Source: a virus
Taxonomy: Duplodnaviria; Heunggongvirae; Uroviricota; Caudoviricetes
Length of the DNA stretch: 64,000 bases
Virus record (IMG/VR): IMGVR_UViG_3300036944_000513
Span: 37,644 to 101,643 of that record
Reading direction: 5' to 3' (one strand)
Shown here piece after piece: positions 12,378 through 28,571 of the stretch (its first letter is position 1; the number at the start of each line of letters is the position of its first letter). Both the position numbers and the translations under genes were made by a program. The notes beneath the pieces are model-generated. The model searched no databases and was not told the origin of the DNA. It worked only from the letters and a program-made list of their open reading frames with translations.

Positions 12378-12445
12378 TTTTAAGTCCAGTTTTTGTTGCG
12401 ATAACGTATTGTAACCGACTTCCGAAACTTTTTGTAGAAAATCTT
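12378..12445 (-). promoter_or_regulatory. PeSL-like early promoter cassette
   Basis: Conserved core. Confidence 0.6.
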
Positions 12446-12787
12446 TTAATCGTTGTTTTTACGCAACGCCACACGCTCTTTGAGTTCTTCGAGTTCAATT
12501 TCCAGCGCAGCATTTAGCATTTCGACAAATATTTTCAATTCCGTTTTTTTCATACATGCAACAACAACTTCCCCCATCATATCGGTGACTTTAATAGCAA
12601 CGCCATAATTTTCTTTTGTCCATGACGCTTCGATAATGCCATCACCCTCGGAATCTGTGATATAAACCCTTCGCTGAGTATTATCAGAATAATCTTCATC
12701 AATTTCATCTGTCATATCACAATATGATGTAAATCCCATTTCATCAGTAATAATCAATGGTGAAATCATTTCAATTAATTTTCTCAT
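12446..12787 (-). CDS. hypothetical protein
   Basis: 113 aa; ATGA overlap with the upstream family gene. Confidence 0.5.
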   Translation of the reverse strand: MRKLIEMISPLIITDEMGFTSYCDMTDEIDEDYSDNTQRRVYITDSEGDGIIEASWTKENYGVAIKVTDMMGEVVVACMKKTELKIFVEMLNAALEIELEELKERVALRKNND

Positions 12788-12993
12788 TCTTCAACTCCAA
12801 AATGTTCTAAAATACCACGGGGGCCGTCATATGCAAGTGTGGCGCATTCTTTAACAATCAATTCGGCAAACTTTTGATCATAAACATGAAGGAAAGTATA
12901 ATCTATTTCTCCGCCATCATCAAAAAAACTACCAAATTTTTCTTCGGTGTCATCCCACGCCTGTTCAGCAAGTTCTTTAATTCGTTCGTTCAT
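12784..12993 (-). CDS. MNERIKELAEQAG / FAELIVKEC / HFGVEE family small protein (paralog)
   Basis: MNERIKELAEQAWDD...KFAELIVKECATLAY...EHFGVEE. Confidence 0.6.
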   Translation of the reverse strand: MNERIKELAEQAWDDTEEKFGSFFDDGGEIDYTFLHVYDQKFAELIVKECATLAYDGPRGILEHFGVEE

Positions 12994-13002
12994 GCGCTTC
13001 CC

Positions 13003-13233
13003 CTAGTTTTTAACGGTGCGGCGCACAGTACAAAGACGATCATGCACAGTCTTTTCCACTTTTGCATCATTGACCATCATAAACCCGATAAACCCCGCCA
13101 AATAGCCAAGAGTCATTTCTGCAATATCATGATTGCTGGTCTCTGGACTACGATTCTTTTCGCGTTCTTTGAGGGTTTTAATCAACTCGGATGCCATTTG
13201 CAGACATTTATCGTCGTGGGACATTGTGGTCAT
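13003..13233 (-). CDS. hypothetical protein
   Basis: 76-aa ORF. Confidence 0.4.
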   Translation of the reverse strand: MTTMSHDDKCLQMASELIKTLKEREKNRSPETSNHDIAEMTLGYLAGFIGFMMVNDAKVEKTVHDRLCTVRRTVKN

Positions 13234-13234
13234 A

Positions 13235-13417
13235 TTAAGTATTCCATTCAGTTACTAGGGATTCTTTGAAGTCATCAAACAACTCATGGTTTTCCATTGC
13301 ATTGATGAGCATTGTACCATTTCCGATACTCATGTGTTCCATGATATACTCGGCATATTGGTCATCGAGTTCATATCGGTCATACATATCTTCAAATTGA
13401 TCTTCTGTCATGGTCAT
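13235..13417 (-). CDS. hypothetical acidic protein
   Basis: 60-aa ORF. Confidence 0.4.
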   Translation of the reverse strand: MTMTEDQFEDMYDRYELDDQYAEYIMEHMSIGNGTMLINAMENHELFDDFKESLVTEWNT

Positions 13418-13488
13418 CCTTTGTTGCTATGAAAGTATTGTAACCGATTTTTAGACTTTGTGCGCGTTTGTTGCGAATTTACAACAAC
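13418..13488 (-). promoter_or_regulatory. PeSL-like early promoter cassette (degenerate)
   Basis: GAAAGTATTGTAACCGATTTTTAG...GAATTTACAACAA. Confidence 0.5.
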
Positions 13489-13677
13489 TTAAATATATCC
13501 AATGTGGCGCTGAAATACCATGTCGTATACTTCAATGCACCGCTTATTGGTGATTTCATCATATGCAACATCTAAAATATATTCTTCGCAAGTATCTTTA
13601 TCAACCTTATCAATAAACTTATTTGCCAAATCAATAGTGGCAAAAAATGTAGTTGGGTGTGGCTTTACTTTAATCAT
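13489..13677 (-). CDS. hypothetical protein
   Basis: 62-aa ORF. Confidence 0.4.
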   Translation of the reverse strand: MIKVKPHPTTFFATIDLANKFIDKVDKDTCEEYILDVAYDEITNKRCIEVYDMVFQRHIGYI

Positions 13678-13830
13678 ATTCTGCTGGTGCGTAGTGGTCT
13701 TGAATATAATCCATTAGGTGGATAATACCATCAATCAATTCTACATTTGCCAATTGACCAGCAGGTGGATTGTCTGCCAATGATACAAGATATTGCTTTT
13801 GTACTTTAAACATTTCCCAATCAATATTCA

Positions 13831-14016
13831 TCATACAACTGCCCCATAATTTAGTGGATTAACATTATATGCAATTGCTTTATGAATTGCATTATTTAAA
13901 ACTTGATAAGTTCCAATTGCTTCACTGCATTCTGGATAATTGTCAAAAAGAGAAGTTGCTTCAATGCAAGCCGCCAGCAACTCGGATGCAATTTCTTCAA
14001 TGGTTGGAGTTTTCAT
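13831..14016 (-). CDS. hypothetical protein
   Basis: 61-aa ORF. Confidence 0.35.
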   Translation of the reverse strand: MKTPTIEEIASELLAACIEATSLFDNYPECSEAIGTYQVLNNAIHKAIAYNVNPLNYGAVV

Positions 14017-14309
14017 GTAATTATCTCTACTGTTTTTGGGTTGCCAGTCTCGCCGTCAAAGGTGATTTTGAGATTGTGTTCGTTGTATTGTTCTTCGCAA
14101 AAGCGCAGCCATTTGCCTTCATGGGCATAAGCATAAGAAACAATATCAGGTTTCGGCTCGGGCTTGATGCGGTAGTCTTGATATTCTTCCCATGTTGGTG
14201 CGGAACCTCCACATTCAACCCACTGTGCGCCGTATTTTTCCCAATATTCAATTTCAGCGCCATCTGCCCATGCTTTGATGAGGGCTGCGTGTTTGTGTGG
14301 TGTTTTCAT
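14013..14309 (-). CDS. hypothetical protein
   Basis: 98 aa; ATGA overlaps. Confidence 0.45.
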   Translation of the reverse strand: MKTPHKHAALIKAWADGAEIEYWEKYGAQWVECGGSAPTWEEYQDYRIKPEPKPDIVSYAYAHEGKWLRFCEEQYNEHNLKITFDGETGNPKTVEIIT

Positions 14310-14310
14310 A

Positions 14311-14571
14311 TTAATGTTGATTCAGTTGAATTTGATGTTGTGACCAAGTTCCTGCAATTCCGACTGTGCATTGATCTGCAATCCCCGCGCCGCCCTTGCT
14401 GTTTTCAAGCGCAGCCAATGCTTGCTGAATGCCAAGATTAACACTTGTAAAATCACCTACGCCATCACGAATTGCTTTTGCAGTAGTGTAAAAAGACACA
14501 CCATTGATAACTACCCGAAATTTTTGTGTTTGCTTAAATTTCATAACAGTCCTTCGTTGTTGATGTGTCAA
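14311..14571 (-). CDS. hypothetical protein
   Basis: 86-aa ORF. Confidence 0.4.
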   Translation of the reverse strand: MTHQQRRTVMKFKQTQKFRVVINGVSFYTTAKAIRDGVGDFTSVNLGIQQALAALENSKGGAGIADQCTVGIAGTWSQHQIQLNQH

Positions 14572-14622
14572 GTATACACGACTTTTTACTAAAAAACTGG
14601 CTTGTGGTAAAAATACAACAAA

Positions 14623-15549
14623 TTATGCACCAGCAGTCAAGACGTATTTTGCCAAGTTTTTCCAGTCGCCACCATCATCTTCTGCGCGAATTTTTACAGT
14701 AGAAATCAGTGAGCGCAAAGAAAGATTGTCAATTTTATCAGCAACTGATGTAATAAAATCTAGTGCGTCCATCTTGCATTCTAGCGAATACTCGGGCATA
14801 AAATCATCATCCAGCAAAATAGATTCCATGCGCTCAATTTTTTGTGCATCCGTCATGCCCACATCAACGCACATTGCCCGACTGCGAACAGCTTGGTCAA
14901 TTTGCTCGGGCATCATGTTACTGATAAAAATAACCGACCCAGTAAACAAAAAACTACGTGGCAAATCTTCATCTTTCATGTCGGCATTCCATGAAATGTA
15001 ACGCTCACCATAAGAGTCAAGCGCACCCTTCAATAGATTGAGTGCCTTAGAATCTTCCAATACGCTATCGCAGTCATCAAAGATCAAAGTCATTCCATTG
15101 CCCTCAAAAAGAGTGCGATACAATCCTTTTGCAGAACTATAACCCTTAATGAAACGATAACTATTTGAACTTTGAAGTTTGGTTCCTTCTTCAAATTTTG
15201 ATAGATCGCTAACATCTACCATGTTTTGTTTCTTTAACGCTTTGGTAACAGTATGCGTCTTGCCAAGTCCACCCTGACCAGTAATGATTGCTGATGCAAT
15301 AGTTTTCTTTGAAACCATTGTAACCATTTTGGAAACGAACTCGAATCGTTGCGTAATTGAAAACTCTGAGTTTACTTTTTCAGGGGCAACTTTTGTTTGC
15401 ATTTGATCGGCTGGAATGCTTGCACCCAGAGACAATACTTTGCTTTCTACGTGCTGGCGTGATGCCGACCACGATACAATTTTGCCATTAATAAAACCAT
15501 CGTAACGACCTTTTGCGTCATTATAAACTACTGTGCCATTCAATTGCAT
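14623..15549 (-). CDS. P-loop NTPase (AAA-type ATPase) with an N-terminal extra domain
   Basis: Walker A GQGGLGKTH and Walker B LIFDDCD; 308 aa. Confidence 0.6.
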   Translation of the reverse strand: MQLNGTVVYNDAKGRYDGFINGKIVSWSASRQHVESKVLSLGASIPADQMQTKVAPEKVNSEFSITQRFEFVSKMVTMVSKKTIASAIITGQGGLGKTHTVTKALKKQNMVDVSDLSKFEEGTKLQSSNSYRFIKGYSSAKGLYRTLFEGNGMTLIFDDCDSVLEDSKALNLLKGALDSYGERYISWNADMKDEDLPRSFLFTGSVIFISNMMPEQIDQAVRSRAMCVDVGMTDAQKIERMESILLDDDFMPEYSLECKMDALDFITSVADKIDNLSLRSLISTVKIRAEDDGGDWKNLAKYVLTAGA

Positions 15550-15782
15550 ACGATTCCTAAGTTGTTATGGATGAAGTATAACAGAAAAACAATAACCCTT
15601 TACTTAAAGGGGTCATAGGGAATAATGTTGTGTTTGCCTTTATATTTTGTAGCTGCTTTGATCTTCAATGCTTCGATGTGCTTGATGTTGTCTGCGTATG
15701 CGACTTTCTTTGCGCCAGCCAAAATTGCAATCATGTTTTCCCAAGGGGTCATTTTAAATCTCCAGTTGTTGATGATGAACGA

Positions 15783-15812
15783 ATTGTATCAGACTTCTAA
15801 TACCCAAGTCAA
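15783..15812 (-). promoter_or_regulatory. sigma70-type promoter (-35 TTGACT, 18 bp, -10 TACAAT)
   Basis: Read on the minus strand, immediately downstream of a terminator; it drives a 49-aa ORF and the ATPase gene. Confidence 0.5.
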
Positions 15813-15832
15813 GCGTAGGGGCATTACAAACA

Positions 15833-15868
15833 AAAAAGCCCAACTACGTGTGCGTTGGGCTTTTTCAT
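15833..15868. terminator. bidirectional rho-independent terminator
   Basis: aaaaaagcccaac-tacgtgtgcg-ttgggcttttt: an 8-bp GC stem flanked by an A-run and a T-run. Confidence 0.6.
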
Positions 15869-15881
15869 GGGCATACACTAA

Positions 15882-16082
15882 TCAATAGGTATCGTCGTAG
15901 TCATCCGAGTAGCTATCGGTATCCTCTGCCATTTCAGGGATAAAGTCATTGGACGCAAGCATATCTTGCACATCAGCAAGTGACATATACTTTAGACACG
16001 CCGTAAGCATATCTTCTGCGCTCACAATACCATCATTGACCAGTTCATGTGCCAAGTCGCGGGAATGTTGATTTTTTGCCAT
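15882..16082 (-). CDS. hypothetical acidic protein
   Basis: 66 aa; GGAG SD. Confidence 0.45.
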   Translation of the reverse strand: MAKNQHSRDLAHELVNDGIVSAEDMLTACLKYMSLADVQDMLASNDFIPEMAEDTDSYSDDYDDTY

Positions 16083-16110
16083 ATAGTTAGCTCCGGTGGT
16101 TGAAAATTAA

Positions 16111-16139
16111 ATTTTAAGGGAAAATCAAATCGGTGTCAA
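16111..16139 (-). promoter_or_regulatory. sigma70-type promoter (-35 TTGACA, 17 bp, -10 TAAAAT)
   Basis: The -35 element overlaps the stop of the upstream gene, within the recurring AAAAATGCTTGAC motif. Confidence 0.5.
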
Positions 16140-16486
16140 GCATTTTTGAAAGAAAGAATTTTTTCTGGCGACACTTCAATAAATTTGTAGTCATCAATTG
16201 ATTCTTCAAATTCAACTTCTTTTTCGGTACACTCTTTCATGTATGCTTCAACGAAATCGGGGGAAATCCAGCGAAATTGTTGACCATTAATCCATGCTTG
16301 CATTTCATAGACAAATTGCGTTTTCTTATCAAAAACGATTGTAAAAATTCGTTCATCGCTAAAATGGCTACCATTCCAAGAATCCAATGAATAAGCATTT
16401 GGGCCATATGAATTCCAATGATACTCACTTCCTTCGGTAATTTTGTAATCAATTGATTCAAACCAGTCTTTTAGCGTGGGGGTCAT
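16136..16486 (-). CDS. hypothetical protein
   Basis: 116-aa ORF. Confidence 0.5.
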   Translation of the reverse strand: MTPTLKDWFESIDYKITEGSEYHWNSYGPNAYSLDSWNGSHFSDERIFTIVFDKKTQFVYEMQAWINGQQFRWISPDFVEAYMKECTEKEVEFEESIDDYKFIEVSPEKILSFKNA

Positions 16487-16776
16487 TTCAAATTTCCTTT
16501 AATATTGTTAATTACATCATTTGCATCGGATAAATCGGAATAAAATACTGATTCATCCTGCAACTCTCCGAGAGAATTTTCATAGCGTCTTAGCAACTCC
16601 TGTGCATAGATAATATCGTCTGCATCTGCCTGAGCATACCATCGCTTAATTGTATCCGTGCTTGATTCAATGAGGAACTTTAAATTATCTGCATCGCGTG
16701 GATTCAAAATATGGTTCCTTAAAATATCGTTTTCCGAAATATTGTTTTTGAAAGTCAACGAAATATGGGTTATCAT
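16483..16776 (-). CDS. hypothetical protein
   Basis: 97-aa ORF. Confidence 0.5.
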   Translation of the reverse strand: MITHISLTFKNNISENDILRNHILNPRDADNLKFLIESSTDTIKRWYAQADADDIIYAQELLRRYENSLGELQDESVFYSDLSDANDVINNIKGNLK

Positions 16777-17002
16777 TTCTGATTACCGGTAATATCCGAC
16801 TTAAACAGCAATCCACACAAAAACATAATACCCCATGCTTGCAGCCACTCAATTTCATGAATGGATGGAATTGCGGGAACAAGACAGGCATTCCATAGCA
16901 GCATAATTGGATATGACATAATCAATCCAAGTACAACCATCAGCACAAGAATACCAAATAATTTTAAGAATAATTTCCATGATTTCTCCAGTTAAAAAAT
17001 AC

Positions 17003-17032
17003 AGTTTACCAAAATATCGTTTCGTTGTCAAG
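17003..17032 (-). promoter_or_regulatory. sigma70-type promoter (-35 TTGACA, 17 bp, -10 TAAACT)
   Basis: Immediately downstream of the macro-domain gene stop; followed by a GGAGA SD and an ATG. Confidence 0.5.
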
Positions 17033-17495
17033 CAAATTCTACGACAGTTACACTTCCAAAAAAATTACTTTCAATTTTTTCAGAAAATGATTCAAGTAGT
17101 GCCATGATTTTTTCTGAATCGCCGCCAGCCAATCCCATTCCAATCATTGGAAATCCAATCTTTTTATCGTTATAGCGAACAATAAGTTTATTGAGAATTT
17201 TTTCAAATGAATCATATTCAAAAAGGTCTTTCATATCATCGCCACGATTCATGCCATATTGAGTATATGCGTTAACGATAACCAAGTCATGCCAATTACC
17301 AATAGTATAGCAGCCAAGTTTATCGGTATCGCCCCATACACTATGCTGATCTGCTAACCAAGCATCGGGAAAATGCTCTTTAATTTGACGCGCAATGCCA
17401 CCGCCCATTGTATTAAAACAATTTGCGCCATGCACGATAACATCGAATCTACCCTCTTTTGCGAGAGCAATCAAATCACCTTTAATTTTATTCAT
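17028..17495 (-). CDS. macro-domain protein (ADP-ribose / ADP-ribose-1''-phosphate processing)
   Basis: GDLIALAKEGRFDVIVHGANCFNTMGGGIA matches the macro-domain GD...NAAN...GGGV signature. The in-frame ATG at 17495 was used, because the track start is TTG. Confidence 0.65.
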   Translation of the reverse strand: MNKIKGDLIALAKEGRFDVIVHGANCFNTMGGGIARQIKEHFPDAWLADQHSVWGDTDKLGCYTIGNWHDLVIVNAYTQYGMNRGDDMKDLFEYDSFEKILNKLIVRYNDKKIGFPMIGMGLAGGDSEKIMALLESFSEKIESNFFGSVTVVEFA

Positions 17496-17691
17496 CTTTA
17501 AGCTCAAATATTGATTTAATTAAATCCACGCATTCTTGTGGAGTTCCATCTGCAATTTTTACAACATTGCAAGCTATTATTGCATGATCTAAAATATTAA
17601 GTGCAAAATATTCAAGTTCTTCTACTTTAATCCATTTTCCACTGGTATCAGTAGGAACCAGTGAAATGTATTCTTTCAATTGTTTATTCAT
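17488..17691 (-). CDS. hypothetical protein
   Basis: 67-aa ORF. Confidence 0.4.
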   Translation of the reverse strand: MNKQLKEYISLVPTDTSGKWIKVEELEYFALNILDHAIIACNVVKIADGTPQECVDLIKSIFELKDE

Positions 17692-17698
17692 AATATCC

Positions 17699-18163
17699 TT
17701 AATTAATTATAATAATTTCTGAGTAACCTTCATCGGTGGTTGGCATCTGAAATTGAGAAATCATTGAGTCTACCACATTTTTTGGAATATGCTTTCCTGC
17801 CCGACCAGACAATCGTACATCCAATTCATCACGCCTTGGAGTAGGAAATACTACTGCAATATGAGTATATCGTTTCAACATATTGAATTTCTTTTTGCGA
17901 CTGGCAATTGTCGTAGAAGTTTGATCCCAAATAATATCTTTCCCTGTAATGCGCGCATTGATAACATCATCCATCATCAAATCAATTGCAGTTGGCATAT
18001 ATTCAGCAAACACTTCATTATAGGTAAGATCAAGTTTTTTTGCTTGGGCTTCAATATGATGGTCAGTTGAAATATAAACGTAATCCTTCGTGAGAGTTTG
18101 ATTCTTAACCCACGTAGATTTACCAGCAGCAGGGACACCAACTAACACGTATACTTTCAACAT
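17699..18163 (-). CDS. P-loop kinase (polynucleotide-kinase-like / AAA_33)
   Basis: VLVGVPAAGKST Walker A close to the N-terminus; 154 aa. Its size and position next to a phosphoesterase and an RNA ligase suggest a Pnk kinase-domain analogue. Confidence 0.55.
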   Translation of the reverse strand: MLKVYVLVGVPAAGKSTWVKNQTLTKDYVYISTDHHIEAQAKKLDLTYNEVFAEYMPTAIDLMMDDVINARITGKDIIWDQTSTTIASRKKKFNMLKRYTHIAVVFPTPRRDELDVRLSGRAGKHIPKNVVDSMISQFQMPTTDEGYSEIIIIN

Positions 18164-18171
18164 ACTTTCCT

Positions 18172-18717
18172 TTAATGATTATGACGTTTAATTTCGCCCT
18201 TTAATGCCATATCAATCGCCGTACTTAATTGAATTGGATAGCAATTATGATTATCCATACCAACATCAATGCAACGATATTGTTCCATTCCACTTTTGCC
18301 GCCATGCAAATGTCCATGAAAATGAACAGACCCACGATGCATCTGATCCCATTCGCATATGGGGTAATGAAACATTATAACTTTAGTTTTATCAATTGTC
18401 AACGAATAATAATCTTGAATTGCATCAAACTCATTGCAAAATGCTCTGTCGTTTATCAGTTTAACATCATGATTGCCACGAATCAAGGTTTTATTACCAT
18501 TGAGCCGCTTCAAATATCGTACTGCTTTTTCTGCATTACAAAAAGCCACATCACCCAAAATATAGGTATGGTCATTGGGCTGAACTACTGAGTTCCATCG
18601 CCGAATAATTTCTTCATCCATTTTATCCGCATCACCTTCGCCAAATGCCCGTGATACAGGACAAAAGCTCATGATGTTTTTATGCGAAAAATGAATATCG
18701 CTTGTAATAAAATCCAT
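18172..18717 (-). CDS. calcineurin-like metallophosphoesterase
   Basis: Motifs DIHFSH, GDVAF, GNHD and HGHLH. Confidence 0.65.
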   Translation of the reverse strand: MDFITSDIHFSHKNIMSFCPVSRAFGEGDADKMDEEIIRRWNSVVQPNDHTYILGDVAFCNAEKAVRYLKRLNGNKTLIRGNHDVKLINDRAFCNEFDAIQDYYSLTIDKTKVIMFHYPICEWDQMHRGSVHFHGHLHGGKSGMEQYRCIDVGMDNHNCYPIQLSTAIDMALKGEIKRHNH

Positions 18718-18728
18718 AACTATCTTTC

Positions 18729-19097
18729 TTATTTTTGCTCTAATGCCTTAAAAAGCATTTCCCATTTTTCGGCTGGAGTAATTGTACCCATTGCCATTTC
18801 CTTTAATACTTCTTTCATTTCTTCTGGATGTTTAAAGTAAATGTTTGCATAGGTGCAATCAAAATCATCATCATCATCGTAATCATACAAAGGATGCTCT
18901 GACATTTCATCAAAAACATCTTCATAATCCTCGCGGTTTCCACCGCCATTGCGGGTATGAATAACGATATGAGTATCGGTAACATAGGCATCACGATAAC
19001 GACCAAAGTCTCCTTGGGTCTTGCCAAGCAATTCAAGGAGAAATTGAGAATGGTCAAAATTCTCACCAAACAACATATTATACAAACTCATTTTCAA
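18729..19097 (-). CDS. hypothetical acidic protein
   Basis: 122-aa ORF. Confidence 0.45.
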   Translation of the reverse strand: MKMSLYNMLFGENFDHSQFLLELLGKTQGDFGRYRDAYVTDTHIVIHTRNGGGNREDYEDVFDEMSEHPLYDYDDDDDFDCTYANIYFKHPEEMKEVLKEMAMGTITPAEKWEMLFKALEQK

Positions 19098-19145
19098 TCC
19101 TCCAAAAAGTTACGAACCCAAGATAAACGCGAAAATTGCATTTTA

Positions 19146-19153
19146 TATAAATA
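19146..19153 (+). promoter_or_regulatory. T4-type late promoter box TATAAATA
   Basis: Exact TATAAATA about 95 nt upstream of the plus-strand homing endonuclease gene. Confidence 0.4.
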
Positions 19154-19247
19154 AGTATAGCACAACATTTTGTGCGTGTCAACAAAAATGTCCATCGCCG
19201 TACTGGTAATACGCATGGACTCTAACAGTTTAAAAGGAACTATCAGC

Positions 19248-19919
19248 ATGACTATTTATTGCGTCTATCTAACCATATACCGAGGAATAAGACTTCCCCC
19301 ATTTTACATTGGTTCAAGTTCAGTAGAAAAAGTTCAAACCGGCTATCATGGATCAGTATGTTCCAACGAGTATAAGTCTATTTGGAAATCGGAACTTAGA
19401 TTTAACTCTAACTTATTTGAAACAAAAATAATTTCCATTCATTCGAACAGAAAAGAAGCAACTCTTAAAGAACATACGCTTCAAAAGAAAGTCGATGCTG
19501 TTAAAAATCCTCTTTATATTAATAAATCATTTGCTGTATATGATGGTTTTACAGATATGGATCAGTCTGGCAAAAATAACCCAATGTATGGCACCTCCCG
19601 CACCGGAGAAGCAAATCCGTTTTATGGGCAAAAACACACAGAAGAAGCTATTGCTAAGATGAGAGGAAGAAAATGTTCAGATAAAAACAAAAGGTTATAT
19701 AGCAAACTCAAATCGGGCATTACTGACTCTGCGGAAACTAAACAAAAAAAGAGTATATCCAAAAAAGGGAAGCCGCCAAACAGTTCCAAAGTTCTCAACT
19801 TGATATTAAAACAGAAGTTTATCTGTATGCTTGATACTAAGAAAGAATATACCTATGTAAATGCTTGTCAACGGCTCCCTGAGATTAAACATCTTTTTTG
19901 GAAAAAAAAGTTAGTTTAA
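19248..19919 (+). CDS. GIY-YIG homing endonuclease (Seg-like, with NUMOD3 repeats)
   Basis: TIYCVYL...FYIGSS is a GIY-YIG signature; two NUMOD3-like NPMYG / NPFYGQKHTEE motifs. It is on the opposite strand to its neighbours, with an AAAGGAA SD before the ATG at 19248. Confidence 0.7.
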   Translation: MTIYCVYLTIYRGIRLPPFYIGSSSVEKVQTGYHGSVCSNEYKSIWKSELRFNSNLFETKIISIHSNRKEATLKEHTLQKKVDAVKNPLYINKSFAVYDGFTDMDQSGKNNPMYGTSRTGEANPFYGQKHTEEAIAKMRGRKCSDKNKRLYSKLKSGITDSAETKQKKSISKKGKPPNSSKVLNLILKQKFICMLDTKKEYTYVNACQRLPEIKHLFWKKKLV

Positions 19920-20810
19920 AAACTCTCGAACCCACTTCAATTTTTCTTGTTCAGTCTTTGTGGTGTATGCGTCAATATTTTCACGAATCGCAGAAAGCAA
20001 CGGGTAATATTCCTCATCAATTTGTTCTTTAAACTCCTTGGTGAGCAATTTTTCAGTTTTAGGATTGCGTGCTACCCATTTACTTACTAAATAGTAAGGG
20101 CTTTTAATTTTAAAAGACTGACTATCTTCTGTGTATGCAATGAATCCTTCGTGCTTAACCTTCTTTGATTCAGCAATCAATTCACCCACGGTCATACGAT
20201 AAGATTCTACCGGATGACATTTAATTGTATCCTCAGAAAATATCTTCCATACTACATCACAAACAAAGCCGTTAACCTTAGACTCCCATGAGTTTTCACG
20301 CCAGCCAAGAAAATACATTCCTGCTTTTTCTGGGACAATGTGTGGGTCACTTGGATGCACACATTCAAACATGAAAGTATGACCTTCATTGCTGGCAATA
20401 TTGATAACCCAATCCTCCCAGCACATATGCTTTAACATCATTTCTTTTGCATAGTCAACGTAATCGTTGGCAGTGCTTCCAGTGGTGGATATTAAAATAT
20501 CGTTATTGTGCCAAGTCATCGCAATCATAAAGCCATTAACTTTACGATATGCAATTACCGGAGTATCATCCGATAAAATAGGAGATTTATCTTCTACGCC
20601 ATAATTATAGATTTTCGTGAATGGGCGTGATATTACATTGAAATCTTTATCAATGATTGTACCACGACATTCCTCAAGAAAATCGTTCCATAAATTATCA
20701 TAAAATACTTTTTTAGAATATTTTAGTACAAAAATTCCATCACCGGCTGGCTTCATTGAAACCAGAGTTGGATTAGATTCTACGAAATGTTTTAGTGCAG
20801 CTTTGTTCAT
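19911..20810 (-). CDS. RNA ligase 1 (T4 RnlA-like)
   Basis: ECRGTIID / SRPFTKIYN / YRKVNGFM (motif I KxNG) / TTGS align with T4 Rnl1 ECRGIMF / SRPMEKFFN / KEDGSL / SKGS; HEGFIAY (motif IV) and FKIKSP (motif V). Confidence 0.6.
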   Translation of the reverse strand: MNKAALKHFVESNPTLVSMKPAGDGIFVLKYSKKVFYDNLWNDFLEECRGTIIDKDFNVISRPFTKIYNYGVEDKSPILSDDTPVIAYRKVNGFMIAMTWHNNDILISTTGSTANDYVDYAKEMMLKHMCWEDWVINIASNEGHTFMFECVHPSDPHIVPEKAGMYFLGWRENSWESKVNGFVCDVVWKIFSEDTIKCHPVESYRMTVGELIAESKKVKHEGFIAYTEDSQSFKIKSPYYLVSKWVARNPKTEKLLTKEFKEQIDEEYYPLLSAIRENIDAYTTKTEQEKLKWVREFLN

Positions 20811-20816
20811 GGATGC

Positions 20817-20845
20817 AGTATAACGTAGACTTTACTATGCGTCAA
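20817..20845 (-). promoter_or_regulatory. sigma70-type promoter (-35 TTGACG, 17 bp, -10 TATACT), near-leaderless
   Basis: The -35 overlaps the TGA stop of the upstream gene; the ATG of the ligase gene lies 6 nt after the -10. Confidence 0.45.
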
Positions 20846-21324
20846 GCATTTTTTGATTTTAGTTTGGCTTCGATGGCTCGGGCACGGCCCTCTGCTGTGA
20901 GGTAGCTATCTAAAATTTCATCGCGTTCCTCATCCGTCAGCCCTACCCACGGGCGCGGTTGTGGGGTGGTGTAGAGTTTGGTTCCCACAGGCAAATCCTT
21001 GAACAACATACCTTCATTTGGTCGATCCTCACCGACGTACTCAACGACGGCCACCGGCTCCTGCGCTGACCTCAATTCGTGGGGCGCATGTTGTTCAAGC
21101 CAAGCAGTGCCTAGCAGCGCCATTGCCTTAGCCTGTTCTATTGTGGTTGGCATTGAAATGCGGGCGACTGGCTGTGATAGCCCATCGGGGCGGTAGGCCA
21201 TATCACTGGATTTCCACTCTTGGCGCATACGCTGCTCCATTTCAATGCGGGTAAACTCATCATCTTCATCGTCTTTAGTCATTTTAAATCCAATATTAAA
21301 ATTTGTCAATCTGTCATTTATCAA
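20842..21324 (-). CDS. hypothetical protein (GC-rich island)
   Basis: 160 aa with clearly elevated GC. Confidence 0.45.
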   Translation of the reverse strand: MINDRLTNFNIGFKMTKDDEDDEFTRIEMEQRMRQEWKSSDMAYRPDGLSQPVARISMPTTIEQAKAMALLGTAWLEQHAPHELRSAQEPVAVVEYVGEDRPNEGMLFKDLPVGTKLYTTPQPRPWVGLTDEERDEILDSYLTAEGRARAIEAKLKSKNA

Positions 21325-21520
21325 ACTCGTCTGCTGGATAGTAACGACCCATCTTCAAGTCATCAATATCAACTTCCATGCGCAAAACATTTTCATGGCT
21401 AGATTCGTACATACACAGCAGCCATTCTACGCGCTCAACTACGCTTCCCTCGCGCCAGTCTTTGCTATCCTCAAATAGCTCAGTTGGCAGCAGTTTTTTG
21501 ATTCGGTCTAGTTCGTTCAT
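21314..21520 (-). CDS. hypothetical protein
   Basis: 68-aa ORF. Confidence 0.4.
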   Translation of the reverse strand: MNELDRIKKLLPTELFEDSKDWREGSVVERVEWLLCMYESSHENVLRMEVDIDDLKMGRYYPADEFDK

Positions 21521-21936
21521 TTTAAAAAAGAATTTCTAATTGCAACTGCATCATGGAGAGCATTATGTGGGATTCTTGACTCATATTCAATAGCAAGATT
21601 CAACTCAAAATTAATTTTTGTGGGCATCAAAATTCGTTCACCCGGCCCCGTAATCAAAGACTCACAGAAATATTTAATATCATCGGGCCAATCCGCAACA
21701 ATGGTGCATTTATTGAACATGAAAAGATAGGATGATAGTTTGGATTGGAACTCACCCCTTGAAAGTGGAACATGAAACATATGCGGCACGACATTATCCC
21801 GAACCCAAGGGTCAAGTTGATCTGTCATTTCCAACTCACAATAAAATACTGGAATATTTACATCTTCTGGCACAAGCGCCATAGACATTAGTTTACCACC
21901 AAATCCATTAAATTCTGTATCTAAAAATAGTTTCAT
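21517..21936 (-). CDS. DEDD-family 3'-5' exonuclease (DnaQ/RNase T-like)
   Basis: Exo I LDTEFNG and Exo III HNALHDA motifs. Confidence 0.6.
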   Translation of the reverse strand: MKLFLDTEFNGFGGKLMSMALVPEDVNIPVFYCELEMTDQLDPWVRDNVVPHMFHVPLSRGEFQSKLSSYLFMFNKCTIVADWPDDIKYFCESLITGPGERILMPTKINFELNLAIEYESRIPHNALHDAVAIRNSFLK

Positions 21937-22268
21937 TTTTCTATCCTATCATATTTAAATTTTTCATGCAACATAATAATATAATTTGCTTTAGCAAAAA
22001 CCCATGGATTTCGATGCGGAAGATGGTTTCCGGTTGCGCCAGTCCAATCTTTAAATTCCCAATCGTAAAAATCAATATTACAATCCTTTGGATTTTCTTT
22101 CTGCAAAGTTTCTAATTCATCTGCCCATTTTTGCCATAAGTGGTCACTCACTATTTCCGTATTCAGTTCATAGTAGATACATGAATGAATAAGCATTTGT
22201 GCCCTTCGCTGCCGTATCTTATCTTTAATGCTTTGCTGCATACTCATTTCAAAAATATCGACTATCAA
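21933..22268 (-). CDS. hypothetical protein
   Basis: 111-aa ORF. Confidence 0.45.
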   Translation of the reverse strand: MIVDIFEMSMQQSIKDKIRQRRAQMLIHSCIYYELNTEIVSDHLWQKWADELETLQKENPKDCNIDFYDWEFKDWTGATGNHLPHRNPWVFAKANYIIMLHEKFKYDRIEK

Positions 22269-22655
22269 TTAGTAAGACATATTTCCCATGCGATCAAATG
22301 CAGTTTCACCTTTAGTCTTTGCATTCAAAATATAAATATTTTTTACATTGTACCGCTTTTCGTTAACATCGTCAAGATAGACGTATGGATTAAGTTCCCA
22401 TTTACAGACTTTATTATAGTTTTTCTTTAGATCAGCGAGTTCTTCTGGGGGGAGTTGATAGTCCCAATCTTTACGATCAATGCATTGTTCTAAGCGACAT
22501 GATTCCAGCCAATATTTCTCAGTCATTTTTACAAGGTCAGATTCAGCCAACTCTGGGTTAATATCCATCCAGTCTCCAACCATGCCATTCCATAGTTTGA
22601 TTTCTGGGTCTCCTTTTAAGGAATTCAATATTTCAATCAATTTAGATTTCTTCAT
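22269..22655 (-). CDS. hypothetical protein
   Basis: 128-aa ORF. Confidence 0.45.
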   Translation of the reverse strand: MKKSKLIEILNSLKGDPEIKLWNGMVGDWMDINPELAESDLVKMTEKYWLESCRLEQCIDRKDWDYQLPPEELADLKKNYNKVCKWELNPYVYLDDVNEKRYNVKNIYILNAKTKGETAFDRMGNMSY

Positions 22656-22879
22656 TCTTCAACTCCGAAATGTTTATCAACCTCATCAAAGATATCATCA
22701 ATGTCTCGTTCAGGGTCATGAGGATTCATTTCCTCAATAACGCTTAAACATTCCTTCACAATCAACTCGGCGAATCTAACTTCTTTTGGCATATACGTCA
22801 GCATATCAAAATCATCAAGATTGCCCTGCCCATAAATCATACCTGCTTCTTTAGCAAGTTCTAAGATTCGTTTGTTCAT
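22652..22879 (-). CDS. MNxRIKELAEQAG / FAELIVKEC / HFGVEE family small protein (paralog)
   Basis: MNKRILELAKEAG...RFAELIVKECLS...KHFGVEE. Confidence 0.6.
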   Translation of the reverse strand: MNKRILELAKEAGMIYGQGNLDDFDMLTYMPKEVRFAELIVKECLSVIEEMNPHDPERDIDDIFDEVDKHFGVEE

Positions 22880-23385
22880 TTTTCAACTCCAATATATCGT
22901 TTAGCTTCTGCCATGAGAGTTGCATCGCCCTTAGTTAATACTTCAAGGAGCAATCTTTTTTCTTCAAGATATACAACTGCAAAGTTTGGGTCATACTGCA
23001 TAATACTTTTCGTATTACTAATCAAGTCTGCAAGTTTAACTGTTTGCGCTTCTGCTGGAGCATTGAAAATATACTCTCTGTCCATGCGCTTGCGAAATTC
23101 TCTGTTACCATATTCTGGTTTAGAGATATCGGTCAACCAACCAACCAATCCAGCAATAATACTGCCAAATTCTTGGGTAATAATTTCGTTGGTAACTTTA
23201 GTATCTTCTACAACATCATGCAGCCATGCAGCAGCAATCATATCAGGAGTGCCACCCACACGTTTTACGATGCTGGCAACTTCTGCTGGATGGACGATAT
23301 AAGGCGCACCAGTGTATTTCCTGCGCTGGTCAACGGCTGCGTGTGCAGCGGTGGCAAAAATCCTTGCCTTTTCCACTTTGTCCAT
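22876..23385 (-). CDS. HD-domain (p)ppGpp hydrolase-like protein (small alarmone hydrolase, RelA/SpoT HD family)
   Basis: ATAAHAAVDQRRKYTGAPYIVHP...AAWLHDVVEDT matches the SpoT/Mesh1 HD hydrolase signature. Confidence 0.65.
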   Translation of the reverse strand: MDKVEKARIFATAAHAAVDQRRKYTGAPYIVHPAEVASIVKRVGGTPDMIAAAWLHDVVEDTKVTNEIITQEFGSIIAGLVGWLTDISKPEYGNREFRKRMDREYIFNAPAEAQTVKLADLISNTKSIMQYDPNFAVVYLEEKRLLLEVLTKGDATLMAEAKRYIGVEK

Positions 23386-23416
23386 TACTATTCTCCATAT
23401 GAATGTCTATAAACGT

Positions 23417-23446
23417 AGTTTACAACAACATTGGAGTCTATGTCAA
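23417..23446 (-). promoter_or_regulatory. sigma70-type promoter (-35 TTGACA, 18 bp, -10 TAAACT)
   Basis: Upstream of the HD hydrolase gene; GGAGAA SD. Confidence 0.45.
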
Positions 23447-23568
23447 GCATTTCTTCTGGTGTTCTATAAGAAAATGCTTTATTTTGACTTTTCCACCACA
23501 ATTCTATTAAAGCATTGCTGCCAAGTAATGCTAATAGATACGGTTGCAATTTTTCTTTAATTGCAATA

Positions 23569-23814
23569 TTATTTCTGAGTATATTCTTTGCCATCAATAA
23601 TAACTGAGGTGGTGCGAGCTTTATTGCCCATTTGTACCGTAGTTGAACTTTCTGGGCAGCGACCAACGGTAATGCGGGAACCGGTGCCGTTGACTATCTC
23701 ATAAAACTTACAATCCTTTAGCTCATCAGGTACGGCAGGAAAGTTTATTTGTGTTGCGCTTGGTGTACATCCAACCAATAATGCTAGGGTTGATACTAAG
23801 ATAAATCGTTTCAT
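23569..23814 (-). CDS. lipoprotein (signal peptide with lipobox LVGC)
   Basis: MKRFILVSTLALLVGCTPS. Confidence 0.55.
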   Translation of the reverse strand: MKRFILVSTLALLVGCTPSATQINFPAVPDELKDCKFYEIVNGTGSRITVGRCPESSTTVQMGNKARTTSVIIDGKEYTQK

Positions 23815-23817
23815 TCT

Positions 23818-23940
23818 TCAACTCCAAAACATTTTTTTAACAAAACTAAAGATAATCATAAAAATTGTAAAGTAAGCAGCAACACCTATCATCAATAAAA
23901 ATAAAGTAGCCAACCAACCTGCTTTATCGCCTTCACTCAT
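23818..23940 (-). CDS. small membrane protein (40 aa, single TM)
   Basis: MSEGDKAGWLATLFLLMIGVAAYFTIFMIIFSFVKKMFWS; ATGA overlaps at both ends. Confidence 0.4.
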   Translation of the reverse strand: MSEGDKAGWLATLFLLMIGVAAYFTIFMIIFSFVKKMFWS

Positions 23941-24197
23941 TCTTCAACTCCGAAATGTTCTTTAATCCGATATGCTGACCAATTTGCCCCATGACCAAAC
24001 TCTGGACTACCATCTAACTCATCGCTTATATGAGCATGGCCTATTTCACTGCAAATTTTAGCACATTCTTTAACAATCAACTCGGCGAAATTTGCAATTT
24101 GATTCTCGCCCCAGAGCACATTTTCAGGCATACCATAACCTAGCGAACACTCTCTCATTCCAGCCTGTTCAGCCAGTTGTTTAATTCGTTCGTTCAT
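23937..24197 (-). CDS. MNERIKELAEQAG / FAELIVKEC / HFGVEE family small protein (paralog)
   Basis: MNERIKQLAEQAG...NFAELIVKECAKIC...EHFGVEE. Confidence 0.6.
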   Translation of the reverse strand: MNERIKQLAEQAGMRECSLGYGMPENVLWGENQIANFAELIVKECAKICSEIGHAHISDELDGSPEFGHGANWSAYRIKEHFGVEE

Positions 24198-24394
24198 ACC
24201 TTCGCCACCTGTTCAGGAAATTTCAAACATTCATCGGCAGAATAAGACCAACATTTATTAGTAAGTTTTATCTTCACCTTCATCGGCGTAAATCCAATAA
24301 TGACTCCCATTGACAACTCGTGTGTATAACCATTTTGCGGAATCAACACGATCTTGTCGCCTACTGCCAATTCTTTACCGGTTACGTCTTTCAT
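24194..24394 (-). CDS. hypothetical protein
   Basis: In-frame ATG at 24394 with an ATGA overlap to the upstream 57-aa ORF; the track start is TTG. Confidence 0.45.
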   Translation of the reverse strand: MKDVTGKELAVGDKIVLIPQNGYTHELSMGVIIGFTPMKVKIKLTNKCWSYSADECLKFPEQVAKV

Positions 24395-24564
24395 TCTTTT
24401 ACTCCCGTTTCCCAAAGACCATTACTAATCATCAAGCGCAACCAGTATGTAAACTTACGATTGCCAAACTTTCGGCGATACTTGTTTAGCATGGCCTTGG
24501 CTTCAACATACTCATTGCTATTGATAGCGTCCGCAATTCTTTCAACTGCTGTTTTGACTTTCAT
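24391..24564 (-). CDS. hypothetical small protein (57 aa)
   Basis: MKVKTAVERIADAINSNEYVEAKAML...; below the track's size cut-off; ATGA coupling at both ends. Confidence 0.4.
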   Translation of the reverse strand: MKVKTAVERIADAINSNEYVEAKAMLNKYRRKFGNRKFTYWLRLMISNGLWETGVKE

Positions 24565-24836
24565 TCTTCAACTCCGAAATGTTGTTTCATTTTGAATCGC
24601 AATATGTCACAAGCCGCTTCACCCTCTGTATAGATTTTCTTCATCTTAAGGTCTGTTTGTTCTTTTCGATTATTAAAGTATTGTGCTTCCAGTTCGGTTG
24701 CCATTCCCATACATTCTTTCACAATCAACTCGGCGAACTTTTCAGCAAAGTCTTTACTGTATGGAATAGTCACAGGATATCCATCAGGACTTTGATGTGA
24801 AGCCTGTTCAGCCAGTTCTAGAATTCGTTCATTCAT
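24561..24836 (-). CDS. MNERIKELAEQAG / FAELIVKEC / HFGVEE family small protein (paralog)
   Basis: MNERILELAEQAS...KFAELIVKECMG...QHFGVEE. Confidence 0.6.
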   Translation of the reverse strand: MNERILELAEQASHQSPDGYPVTIPYSKDFAEKFAELIVKECMGMATELEAQYFNNRKEQTDLKMKKIYTEGEAACDILRFKMKQHFGVEE

Positions 24837-24999
24837 TCTTCAACTCCGAAATGTTGTTTCAAGACCAACTTAAATTCAATCTCCGGCGTGAGCATTGGAT
24901 GCTCAACTTTGTCTTGGATTAGTTGGTGTCGCCCTTCGGTATTTGATCTACCAAGCAACACACCATTATAGTATACTTCCCACTCATAATTTTCGTAAA

Positions 25000-25239
25000 T
25001 CATTCCTCAACTCCGAAATGTTCTTTTACTCGTCTTGCCGCATTTTGAACAGCATTGGCGCTTTCAAATTCATCTTTATCCCAGTACCACTTTGATTCTT
25101 TAAGAATAGTGGTCATACATTCTGCCACAATCAACTCGGCGAACTTTTCTAATTCATTGTTACGAAATACAAGCCCGCTAATGCCTGCCCTTCGTCCAGC
25201 GCCAGCCTGTTCGGCAAGTTCTTGTATTCGTTCGTTCAT
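25000..25239 (-). CDS. MNERIKELAEQAG / FAELIVKEC / HFGVEE family small protein (paralog)
   Basis: MNERIQELAEQAGAG...KFAELIVAECMT...EHFGVEE. Confidence 0.6.
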   Translation of the reverse strand: MNERIQELAEQAGAGRRAGISGLVFRNNELEKFAELIVAECMTTILKESKWYWDKDEFESANAVQNAARRVKEHFGVEE

Positions 25240-28356: not shown

Positions 28357-28571
28357 AGTCTATCAAATTTAGTTGTTGCTCCATGATATAAATCATATTC
28401 TTTAATTGGAACCCATTCTTCAATTGGTTGTTTTCCATGAACATTGAGCAACAAGAATTTATGATTAGTTAAATCGGCATCTATCTTTTTTTTAATAGAT
28501 ACTTCTATCGTAATCGGATTTCCTTCGTTATCGGTTCTTGGGCCGAGCATTACAATATATTCAGTTGTCAT
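28353..28571 (-). CDS. hypothetical protein
   Basis: 72-aa ORF. Confidence 0.4.
   Translation of the reverse strand: MTTEYIVMLGPRTDNEGNPITIEVSIKKKIDADLTNHKFLLLNVHGKQPIEEWVPIKEYDLYHGATTKFDRL

What the first reader, a model, noticed from the sequence alone, without database searches (positions are those of the whole stretch)
12784..25239. The conserved FGVEE tail doubles as the Shine-Dalgarno sequence and start codon of the downstream gene
The tail HFGVEE-stop is encoded as CAT TTC GGA GTT GAA GAA TGA. The GGAG inside the Gly-Val codons sits 7 nt before an ATG that overlaps the TGA stop (GAATGA). The next gene therefore starts on ATGA, which fits stop/start translational coupling. The plus-strand string CATTCTTCAACTCC(G/A)AAATG recurs at each family-gene end. 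Part of the C-terminal conservation may therefore be a nucleotide-level constraint (RBS plus start codon) rather than a protein-level one. It also suggests these genes spread together with a fixed junction.
Basis: seen in the sequence. Interest (0 to 1): 0.5.

Follow-up and report, generated by a model that had tools for sequence, protein, structure and literature searches.

The report
Gene tail that doubles as ribosome-binding site
In an uncultivated T4-like phage, the last 21 bases of a many-copy family of tiny genes encode the protein's end and also the ribosome-binding site and start codon of the next gene; this dual use is real but is a known kind of arrangement, and the family also swaps its parts at conserved DNA blocks.

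Summary
CATTT(C/T)GGAGTTGAAGAATGA, on the minus strand, occurs 10 times in the window against 0.01 expected. Each copy ends one ORF and supplies GGAG, a 7-nt spacer and an ATG for the next ORF through an ATGA overlap.

The motif is the 3' end of an unannotated three-helix protein family: 11 paralogs in the window and hundreds in IMG/VR contigs.

The nucleotide-level reading is supported:
- GGA, GTT, GAA and GAA are used in 86-100% of tails (codon-usage background 21-74%).
- The four G-V-E-E codons show 7% minor synonymous codons, against 19-21% in the family's other conserved blocks.
- Single-base variants (GAATAATG) change the protein end but keep GGAG-7-ATG.
- A transmembrane ORF and its ortholog read the same string in another frame.
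- GGAG is less often kept in tails with no overlapping start.

- H and F are under protein-level constraint.
- All three conserved blocks are conserved in DNA well beyond codon bias, and they act as recombination joints. Clear chimeras switch partners inside the FAELIVKEC block.

Translational coupling itself is inferred, not shown. I class this as a new variant of known kinds, of moderate interest.

The parts
12784..12804 (-). Junction block CATTTTGGAGTTGAAGAATGA. It ends family gene 12784-12993 (..EHFGVEE*) and supplies GGAG, a 7-nt spacer and the ATG for ORF 12446-12787 (113 aa).
22652..22672 (-). Junction block. It ends family gene 22652-22879 (..KHFGVEE*) and starts ORF 22269-22655 (128 aa).
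22876..22896 (-). Variant block TATATTGGAGTTGAAAAATGA. It ends the non-family HD-domain gene 22876-23385 (..RYIGVEK*) and starts family gene 22652-22879.
   Evidence: Pfam HD_4
23811..23831 (-). The same string, TGTTTTGGAGTTGAAGAATGA, read in a different frame. The 40-aa transmembrane ORF 23818-23940 ends ..KKMFWS* on the TGA inside GTTGAA. The lipoprotein-like ORF 23569-23814 starts at the ATG.
   Evidence: The ortholog in L001 (67.5% identical) also ends MFWS* over ATGTTTTGGAGTTGA.
23937..23957 (-). Junction block. It ends family gene 23937-24197 and starts the transmembrane ORF 23818-23940.
24391..24405 (-). Looser variant GGAGTAAAAGAATGA. It ends the non-family 57-aa ORF 24391-24564 (..ETGVKE*) and starts ORF 24194-24394.
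24561..24581 (-). Junction block. It ends family gene 24561-24836 and starts ORF 24391-24564. The N-terminal variable module of this gene is about 92% identical in DNA to that of the L006 gene that starts at locus position 3374 (labelled 3373 in the scripts, which count from 0), whereas the C-terminal halves cannot be aligned.
24833..24853 (-). Junction block. It ends the 56-aa ORF 24833-25003 (..KQHFGVEE*), which resembles the family only in its last ~9 codons, and starts family gene 24561-24836. With the family's 5' block this makes one continuous conserved junction.
   Evidence: The ortholog in L071 keeps the tail.
25000..25020 (-). Junction block with GAG GAA. It ends family gene 25000-25239 and starts ORF 24833-25003.
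30384..30404 (-). Variant CACTTTGGAGTTGAGGGATGA. It ends ORF 30384-30575 (..KKHFGVEG*, not recognised as family) and starts ORF 30148-30387.
31696..31716 (-). Variant CATTTCGGAGTCAAAGAATGA. It ends family gene 31696-31899 (..EHFGVKE*) and starts family gene 31475-31699.
28568..29049 (-). Two tandem family genes with diverged tails: 28783-29049 (..RLGVNL*, CTTGGAGTAAACCTATGA) and 28568-28786 (..NFGITE*, TTCGGAATAACAGAATGA). Both still overlap the next start by ATGA.
4912..5482 (-). Two family genes whose tails are not coupled to the next gene: 5258-5482 (..EFFGV*, stop TAA) and 4912-5166 (..SFFKV*). F-G/K-V is kept, with no EE and no overlapping ATG.
22269..25865 (-). Putative early transcription unit that contains the main family array. 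It has a perfect sigma-70 consensus promoter (25865-25837), then a Tad3 homolog (25236-25721), then tightly packed ORFs, the first eight of them joined by 4-nt ATGA overlaps.

Best explanation
The 21-nt string is the 3'-terminal conserved block of a widespread, unannotated, multi-copy family of roughly 55-90-aa three-helix proteins. The family is found in uncultivated T4-like phages.

The block is read twice. As protein, CAT TTY closes helix 3 (His-Phe), and GGA GTT GAA GAA is a short unstructured tail. As mRNA signal, GGAG is the Shine-Dalgarno (SD) sequence, TTGAAGA is the 7-nt spacer, and the ATG of the ATGA overlap is the start codon of whatever cistron lies downstream. The family gene therefore carries the ribosome-binding site of its downstream neighbour.

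This dual use adds a nucleotide-level constraint to the last four codons (shown statistically). Downstream translation by termination-reinitiation or SD-assisted initiation is inferred from what is known of ATGA pairs.

A second process acts on top of this. All three conserved blocks of the family (5' ATGAACGAACGAATT.., middle AAGTTCGCCGAGTTGATTGT.., and the 3' tail) are kept nearly identical in DNA, and they serve as crossover points for homologous recombination. Recombination at the middle block and at the gene junction shuffles the two variable modules and whole genes between paralogs and between phages (shown by chimeras).

Because the 3' block ends in ATGA and the 5' block begins with ATGA, such an exchange leaves the neighbouring genes' stop codon, SD and start codon intact. 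Selective benefit from this is inferred.
For: Position and use as a ribosome-binding site:
- GGAG sits at -11 to -8, the same place as the G peak of 124 other genes in the window.
- The spacer is exactly 7 nt in 137/149 coupled tails.
- An ORF of at least 30 aa opens at the ATG in 157/162 motif instances with up to 1 mismatch and in 113/120 exact instances.
- Orthologs of downstream genes (clusters c25, c73, c43) align from that Met.

Nucleotide-level constraint:
- Tail codons are GGA 92% (background 21%), GTT 90% (38%), and GAA 96% and 100% (74%), with TGA 96%.
- The GVEE codons have 7.2% minor synonymous codons, against 19-21% in the other conserved blocks (odds ratio about 3, p about 1e-14, not corrected for relatedness). 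The result also holds in 170 genes that were not used to seed the search.
- HFGVE* variants read GGAGTTGAATAATG or ..GAATGATG. One base change alters the protein end but keeps GGAG-7-ATG.
- The motif is used in another frame by a transmembrane ORF and by its 67.5%-identical ortholog, and by frameshifted family tails (..HFRS*).
- GGAG is kept in 149/163 coupled tails against 10/16 uncoupled FG tails (p = 0.0036).

Protein-level part:
- F is present in 206/206 tails with free TTC/TTT choice.
- In the AlphaFold2 model (pLDDT 83), H74-F75 end helix 3 and G76-E79 are coil.

Recombination:
- The single family gene in L022 equals the N half of gene 1 in L037 plus the C half of gene 2, with the breakpoint inside the middle block.
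- 29 gene pairs share only the N module, 25 share only the C module, and 12 share both.
- DNA alignments switch from 92-99% identity to unalignable sequence at the middle block.

Link to the family: 108/120 exact 21-mers in IMG/VR loci end a family ORF.

Literature:
- ATGA pairs are translationally coupled, and the SD inside the upstream gene often matters (PMC6728339).
- T4-type recombination needs less than 50 bp of homology and shuffles genes at conserved repeats (PMC2839356).
Against: - No expression data exist, the host is unknown, and coupling is untested.
- The spacer TTGAAGA and the upstream AACATTT are as conserved as GGAG (0.86-0.95 per base). An SD/start model alone does not need this.
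- GGAG is still present in 10/16 tails without an overlapping start, and that sample is small.
- The statistics treat genes as independent although they are related. Frequent gene conversion could inflate the apparent constraint.
- About half of the other ATGA junctions in the window have no clear SD, so an SD is not obligatory for such junctions in this phage.
- Higher conservation of the tail could partly reflect a protein role for a free acidic C-terminus.
Confidence: 0.7

Rival explanations
1. Recombination linker only. The block is conserved in DNA solely because paralogs keep recombining or converting at it, as they do at the other two blocks. The GGAG-7-ATG arrangement would then be incidental, and downstream genes would be translated regardless of it.
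For: - The N-terminal and middle blocks show the same kind of atypical, fixed codons without any ribosome-binding role.
- Chimeras prove that recombination occurs at the blocks.
- GGAG persists in 10/16 uncoupled tails.
- Spacer and upstream bases are as conserved as GGAG.
Against: - Synonymous variability is about 3 times lower over the G-V-E-E codons than in the other blocks or in the adjacent H-F codons.
- GGAG sits at the genome-wide SD position.
- Single-base variants preserve the spacing while changing the protein end.
- The last codon is GAA in 119/119 cases and the stop is TGA in 96%, as an ATG requires.
- SD use drops when no start overlaps.
Confidence: 0.15
2. Protein-level constraint only. 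HFGVEE would be a functional C-terminal peptide, for example an interaction or stability motif. The codon uniformity would reflect recent common ancestry or codon bias.
For: - H, F, G and V are conserved as amino acids even in tails that end FGV* or lack an overlapping start (17/23).
- F is invariant with free codon choice.
Against: - GGA makes up 21% of Gly codons in the background but 92% here. GTT is 38% against 90%.
- The rest of each gene has diverged beyond alignment, so recent ancestry cannot explain fixed third positions.
- The string is used in another frame by an unrelated transmembrane ORF and by its ortholog.
- The model places GVEE outside the fold.
Confidence: 0.07
3. Some other nucleic-acid element: an RNA hairpin that gates initiation, a promoter or terminator, an endoribonuclease site of the RegB type (which cuts at GGAG), or a homing-endonuclease target.
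For: - GGAG is the T4 RegB cleavage motif (my own knowledge; not tested here).
- A small GIY-YIG nuclease gene directly precedes family arrays in 12 of 16 loci that contain it, and homing-endonuclease-like ORFs lie near the arrays in the window.
Against: - Seven junctions fold no better than shuffled sequence (z from -0.19 to +1.02).
- No promoter or terminator consensus lies in the motif.
- No RegB homolog was looked for, and no cleavage data exist.
- The nuclease association suffers from ascertainment bias, because the loci were chosen for containing the family.
Confidence: 0.05

Closest known systems
Translationally coupled overlapping gene pairs (ATGA / TGATG) with an intragenic Shine-Dalgarno, translated by termination-reinitiation (Huber et al. 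2019, PMC6728339)
   Same: Both have co-directional genes with a 4-nt ATGA overlap and an SD embedded in the last codons of the upstream gene at the normal distance. The upstream C-terminus is therefore constrained by the downstream ribosome-binding site.
   Different: Here the ribosome-binding site and start form a fixed 21-nt string that belongs to one gene family. It travels with that family in front of many unrelated downstream genes and recurs hundreds of times across phage metagenomes. Coupling has not been measured.
PeSL (promoter-early stem-loop) cassettes that mediate modular shuffling in T4-type phages (Arbiol et al. 2010, PMC2839356; Comeau et al. 2014, PMC4122927)
   Same: Both are short conserved repeats, in the hyperplastic early regions of T4-like genomes, that carry an expression signal and serve as homologous-recombination sites for inserting, deleting or swapping small ORFan genes.
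   Different: PeSLs are intergenic and consist of a sigma-70 promoter plus a GGGG..CCCC stem-loop. The blocks here lie inside coding sequence, carry a translation signal rather than a transcription signal, and have no secondary structure. True PeSL-like cassettes also exist in this window, at 2.4-12.4 kb.
T-even gp38 adhesins: hypervariable segments separated by conserved glycine-rich motifs, with recombination at the conserved motifs (Trojet et al. 2011, PMC3157838; Tetart et al. 1998 as cited there)
   Same: Both have a conserved structural scaffold alternating with variable segments. Exchanges happen within or next to the most conserved motifs and generate chimeras.
   Different: The protein, its size and its function are all different. 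The family here is a ~80-aa helical protein of unknown function present in many copies per genome, and one of its conserved motifs doubles as the next gene's ribosome-binding site.
Mosaic boundaries at gene junctions in lambdoid and other tailed phages (my own knowledge; not checked here)
   Same: Novel joints coincide with gene boundaries, so that modules stay functional.
   Different: In those phages the boundaries are usually explained by selection after illegitimate recombination. Here the boundary is itself a conserved repeat with a defined translational function.

Membership tests
Translationally coupled ATGA gene pair (termination-reinitiation) | Co-directional genes whose stop and start codons overlap (ATGA or TGATG) | tested here: met
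   All 10 instances in the window overlap by ATGA. So do 99/103 external FGVEE* tails. Of the full-length family tails, 156/202 overlap by ATGA and 16 more by TAATG.
Translationally coupled ATGA gene pair (termination-reinitiation) | SD-like motif inside the upstream gene at a functional distance from the downstream start | tested here: met
   GGAG with a 7-nt spacer is found in 137/149 coupled tails. This is the same position as the SD peak of other genes in the window.
Translationally coupled ATGA gene pair (termination-reinitiation) | Downstream translation depends on translation of the upstream gene | not testable with these tools
   This needs stop-codon-insertion reporters or ribosome profiling. 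No strong RNA structure that would block de novo initiation was predicted.
PeSL regulatory cassette of T4-type phages | Intergenic location with a sigma-70-like early promoter | tested here: not met
   The block lies entirely within coding sequence. No promoter consensus overlaps it.
PeSL regulatory cassette of T4-type phages | Stable stem-loop (often GGGG..CCCC) that acts as a terminator | tested here: not met
   Seven junctions have folding z-scores from -0.19 to +1.02.
PeSL regulatory cassette of T4-type phages | Recombination breakpoints fall in the repeats and shuffle the flanked ORFs | tested here: met
   There are breakpoints inside the middle block. Rearrangement joints fall at the ATGA of the 3' block. 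Family copy number differs between syntenic loci.
Any curated protein family (Pfam-A, PHROGs) | Significant profile match | tested here: not met
   There are no Pfam hits at E <= 1, and PHROG hits are all at E >= 0.011. There is no tblastn or blastn match in 50,697 cultured-phage records. The 561 metagenomic homologs are unnamed or called 'hypothetical protein', apart from one labelled peroxiredoxin. There is no structural match in the PDB.

The most novel reading that the evidence does not exclude
The family may be a built-in combinatorial diversification system. A three-helix scaffold would be encoded by three DNA-conserved linkers, between which two variable modules are freely reassorted within and between phage genomes. 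The 3' linker would have evolved as a portable translational adapter (own stop codon, plus SD and start codon for the neighbour), so that any insertion, deletion or swap of a cassette inside a polycistronic early operon is expression-neutral for the flanking genes. The arrays sit next to counter-defence genes (a Tad3 homolog) and nuclease genes. The variable modules could therefore be rapidly evolving host-takeover or anti-defence specificities, with nearby GIY-YIG endonucleases possibly stimulating the exchanges.
Probability: 0.3. Interest if true: 0.65.

Novelty: new variant of a known kind. Interest (0 to 1): 0.45.

Why it matters
This is a clean, statistically supported natural example of dual coding at a gene end. 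A protein family's 'conserved C-terminal motif' is in part the ribosome-binding site of the next gene. That is a caution for anyone who reads C-terminal motifs as functional peptides in densely packed phage genomes.

It also shows that gene shuffling in T4-like hyperplastic regions can use conserved blocks inside coding sequence that carry translation signals, and not only intergenic promoter/terminator cassettes.

The family itself is abundant in viral metagenomes, present in many copies per genome, mosaic and unannotated. It lies beside a Thoeris inhibitor homolog, which makes it a reasonable candidate for functional study.

For synthetic biology, the 21-mer is a ready-made seamless junction for coupling cistrons.

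Tried and rejected
- Cassette flanked by direct repeats of the motif: rejected. For 172 family genes not directly preceded by another family gene, most upstream sequences are diverse SDs. Only about 25 carry the motif. It is the 3' end of the family gene, not a 5' flank.
- Generic ribosome-binding consensus of the phage: rejected. Other genes use AGGA/GGAG with varied AT-rich spacers, and 108/120 exact 21-mers end a family ORF.
- RNA hairpin around the SD/AUG (CAUUU pairing with GAAUG): no support.
- Slippery A7 run before the MFWS* tail as a programmed frameshift into ..CFGVEE*: rejected. The L001 ortholog has no A-run and keeps the MFWS* frame.
- Search bias as the cause of codon uniformity: the tail was not a search pattern, and the result holds in non-seed genes.
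- Synteny search with the HD-domain neighbour in IMG/VR: no relatives found.
- Megablast, blastn and tblastn against cultured phages: no matches.
- Fold search for a function of the family: nothing below E = 1.
- In one search one of my four tblastn queries, the 31696-31833 ORF, was typed partly from memory and was wrong in the middle. I use only the true translation.

Full report
**Context.** The window is part of an uncultivated T4-like phage. ORFs for the DNA polymerase, helicase, clamp, clamp loader and a UvsX-like protein lie at 37-52 kb on the minus strand. GC content is 37%. The polymerase is only about 49% identical to those of T4-like cyanophages, and the region has no DNA match among 50,697 cultured-phage records. 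The finding lies in a block of small, tightly packed minus-strand genes.

**The observation.** The plus-strand string CATTCTTCAACTCCRAAATG has 10 matches with up to 3 mismatches, 5 of them exact, against 0.01 expected. The core GGAGTTGAAGAATG has 12 matches with up to 2 mismatches, against 0.71 expected. On the minus strand it reads CAT TT(C/T) GGA GTT GAA GAA TGA = HFGVEE-stop. GGAG lies 7 nt before an ATG that overlaps the TGA. In every case an ORF of 40-128 aa opens at that ATG.
- Copies and family members also lie outside 12784-25239, at 4912-5482, 28568-29049, 30384-30404 and 31475-31899.
- Only 6 of the 11 family members in the window carry the (near-)canonical tail. The others end NFGITE*, RLGVNL*, EFFGV*, SFFKV* and QFKVK*.
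- Several non-family ORFs end on the same string.

**What the genes are.** The carriers form one family. Its conserved parts are MN(E/K)RIxELAxQAG, a variable stretch, KFAELIVKEC, a second variable stretch, and (I/V)KxHFGVEE (alignment A1).
- Pfam and PHROGs do not know the family.
- It has no match in cultured phages.
- It is abundant in metagenomes: 561 homologs at E <= 0.001, which are unnamed or called 'hypothetical protein' apart from one labelled peroxiredoxin, and more than 386 loci in IMG/VR.
- An HMM search of ORFs in the 80 fetched loci plus the window found 247 members, often in tandem arrays.
- An AlphaFold2 model (pLDDT 83) gives three helices, at residues 3-12, 27-52 and 59-75. 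His74-Phe75 close helix 3, and Gly-Val-Glu-Glu is a coil tail.
- No solved structure resembles the model.

**Is the tail constrained at the nucleotide level?** Yes.
- Among 103 external FGVEE* tails the codons are GGA 102, GTT 97, GAA 102 and GAA 103, with TGA 99 and an ATGA overlap in 99. Background usage in 300 neighbouring ORFs is GGA 21%, GTT 38% and GAA 74%, and TAA is the commonest stop.
The G-V-E-E codons carry 7.2% minor synonymous codons. The figures for the other blocks are 20.7% (N-terminal), 19.2% (middle) and 25.1% (the adjacent H-F codons). The result holds in 170 genes that did not seed the search.
- Tails ending HFGVE* read GGAGTTGAATAATG or GGAGTTGAATGATG. One substitution moves the stop codon but leaves GGAG-7 nt-ATG intact. 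The spacer is exactly 7 nt in 137/149 coupled tails.
- In the window, the 40-aa transmembrane ORF 23818-23940 reads the same string in another frame (..ATG TTT TGG AGT TGA, giving MFWS*). Its 67.5%-identical ortholog in L001 does the same.
- Where no start overlaps the stop, GGAG is kept less often: 10/16 against 149/163, p = 0.0036.
- GGAG sits where the phage's other genes have their SD. The G peak is at -11 to -8, and GGAG spacers are 6-8 nt.
- ATGA is the commonest tight junction in the window, at 35 of 132 junctions.
- The junctions are unstructured. A perfect sigma-70 promoter at 25865-25837 can drive the main array as one transcript.

**What the ribosome-binding reading does not explain.**
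- Phe is invariant (206/206) while its codon floats (TTC 116, TTT 90), and His is strongly conserved. Both lie outside the SD and inside the predicted fold, so they are under protein-level constraint.
- F-G-[VI] persists in 17/23 tails with no coupled start.
- The two other conserved blocks also keep atypical codons across unrelated contigs: AAC 88%, CGA 84% (background 13%), CTT 74%, AAG 89%, GCC 80% (19%), GAG 81% (26%) and TTG 80% (26%). No ribosome-binding site is involved at these blocks.
- Within the tail, the spacer and the upstream AACATTT are as conserved as GGAG.

**Recombination at the blocks.**
- Syntenic loci differ in family copy number.
- L022 has one family gene where L037 has two. 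The L022 gene is the N half of L037 gene 1 joined to the C half of gene 2, with the junction inside AAGTTTGCCGAATTGATTGT.
- Across the data set, 29 gene pairs share only the N-terminal variable module, 25 share only the C-terminal module, and 12 share both.
- DNA alignments switch from 92-99% identity to unalignable sequence exactly at the middle block. One example involves window gene 24561-24836.
- Orthologous downstream genes begin at the same ATGA whether a family tail or another gene's tail precedes them.
- An extra, divergent family member in L073 sits between two genes that are adjacent in L022 and L037, and it hands its ATG to the downstream gene.
- T4-type recombination is known to need less than 50 bp of homology and to shuffle ORFans at conserved repeats (PMC2839356). 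gp38 adhesins recombine at their conserved motifs (PMC3157838).

**Synthesis.** The 21-mer belongs to the family: 108/120 exact copies in IMG/VR loci end a family ORF. It is used twice. It encodes the end of helix 3 plus a coil tail, and it provides the SD, spacer and start codon for the next cistron. Two forces keep it constant. One is a family-wide homogenisation of all three blocks that goes with recombination. The other is an additional translational constraint confined to GGAG..ATGA. Coupling by termination-reinitiation is the expected mechanism for ATGA pairs with an SD inside the upstream gene (PMC6728339), but it is inferred here.

The principle of an intragenic SD at overlapping genes is known, and so is recombination at short conserved repeats in T4-like phages. 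What appears to be new is their combination in a conserved coding block of an abundant, unannotated, mosaic gene family.

**Limits.**
- There are no expression data and the host is unknown.
- The statistics ignore relatedness between genes.
- The uncoupled sample is small.
- The function of the family is unknown.

Noticed in passing
window 2400-12500, minus strand (e.g. 6013-6028, 8236-8251, 8717-8732, 9072-9087, 10774-10789): Most of the small genes here are separated by a repeated intergenic cassette. Its parts are GTTGCNTAAAAACAAC (12 hits against 1.7 expected), a TTTTCGGGG..CCCCGAAAA stem-loop, a TACAAT/TATAAT -10-like box, and a CGCAACAAAA(A)C.G.. leader before the ATG. It looks like the PeSL promoter/terminator cassettes of T4-type phages. 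Its 5' edge overlaps the upstream gene, so many unrelated proteins end in ..VA*. This is a second case of a junction sequence shaping C-termini.
   Followed up: partly
window 25236-25721 (-): The gene directly upstream of the main family array matches Pfam PF25185 'Type I Thoeris inhibitor Tad3' (E = 6.6e-37). It follows a perfect sigma-70 consensus promoter at 25865-25837. The family array therefore sits in a likely early counter-defence operon.
   Followed up: partly
loci L005, L022, L026, L034, L037, L046, L052, L053, L061, L068, L073, L078 (cluster c2, e.g. L022:2612-3001); window 19170-19919 (+) and 25698-26642 (+): A 129-aa GIY-YIG nuclease gene (Pfam E = 9e-5) directly precedes family arrays in 12 of the 16 loci that contain it. 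It ends ..NTFGVK* over TTTGGAGTAAAGTAATG, which again gives GGAG-7-ATG. In the window, opposite-strand ORFs near the arrays look like free-standing homing endonucleases (one has a NUMOD3 motif, E = 3.8e-8). There may be a link between nucleases and recombination in the family. The loci were selected for containing the family, so the association is biased.
   Followed up: partly
window 29831-30151 (-); also L047 (a ..WDDDDIPF* ORF that stops ~15 nt before the family gene at 3001): A conserved 106-aa protein (cluster c43) ends in ..MMDDDIPF*. This resembles the C-terminal tip of bacterial SSB (..DDDIPF; my own knowledge). It may mimic the SSB tail.
   Followed up: no
L006/L007, family gene starting at 3374 (labelled 3373 in the scripts, which count from 0): A family member in which the stop is lost (GAAGAATGA > GAAGAATCT). 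HFGVEE becomes internal and the gene is fused to a Cys-rich downstream ORF (..SLGWVCSKCGTDRTKAVCPLG..).
   Followed up: no
family middle block, e.g. window 24716-24745 (-): The middle block ..GCCGAGTTGATTGTGAAAGAATGT resembles the tail GGAGTTGA-AGAATGA. Both share GAGTTGA and AAGAATG, separated by an extra TTGTGA in the middle block. The internal out-of-frame ATG opens only a few codons. This could be chance, an old internal duplication, or a substrate for unequal exchange. It is unexplained.
   Followed up: no
window 24833-25003 (-) and 30384-30575 (-): Two small ORFs are unrelated to the family except for their last ~9-12 codons (..LKQHFGVEE*, ..AAKKHFGVEG*). The first has a 70%-identical ortholog in L071 with the same tail. 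They look like chimeras that acquired the family's 3' block.
   Followed up: partly
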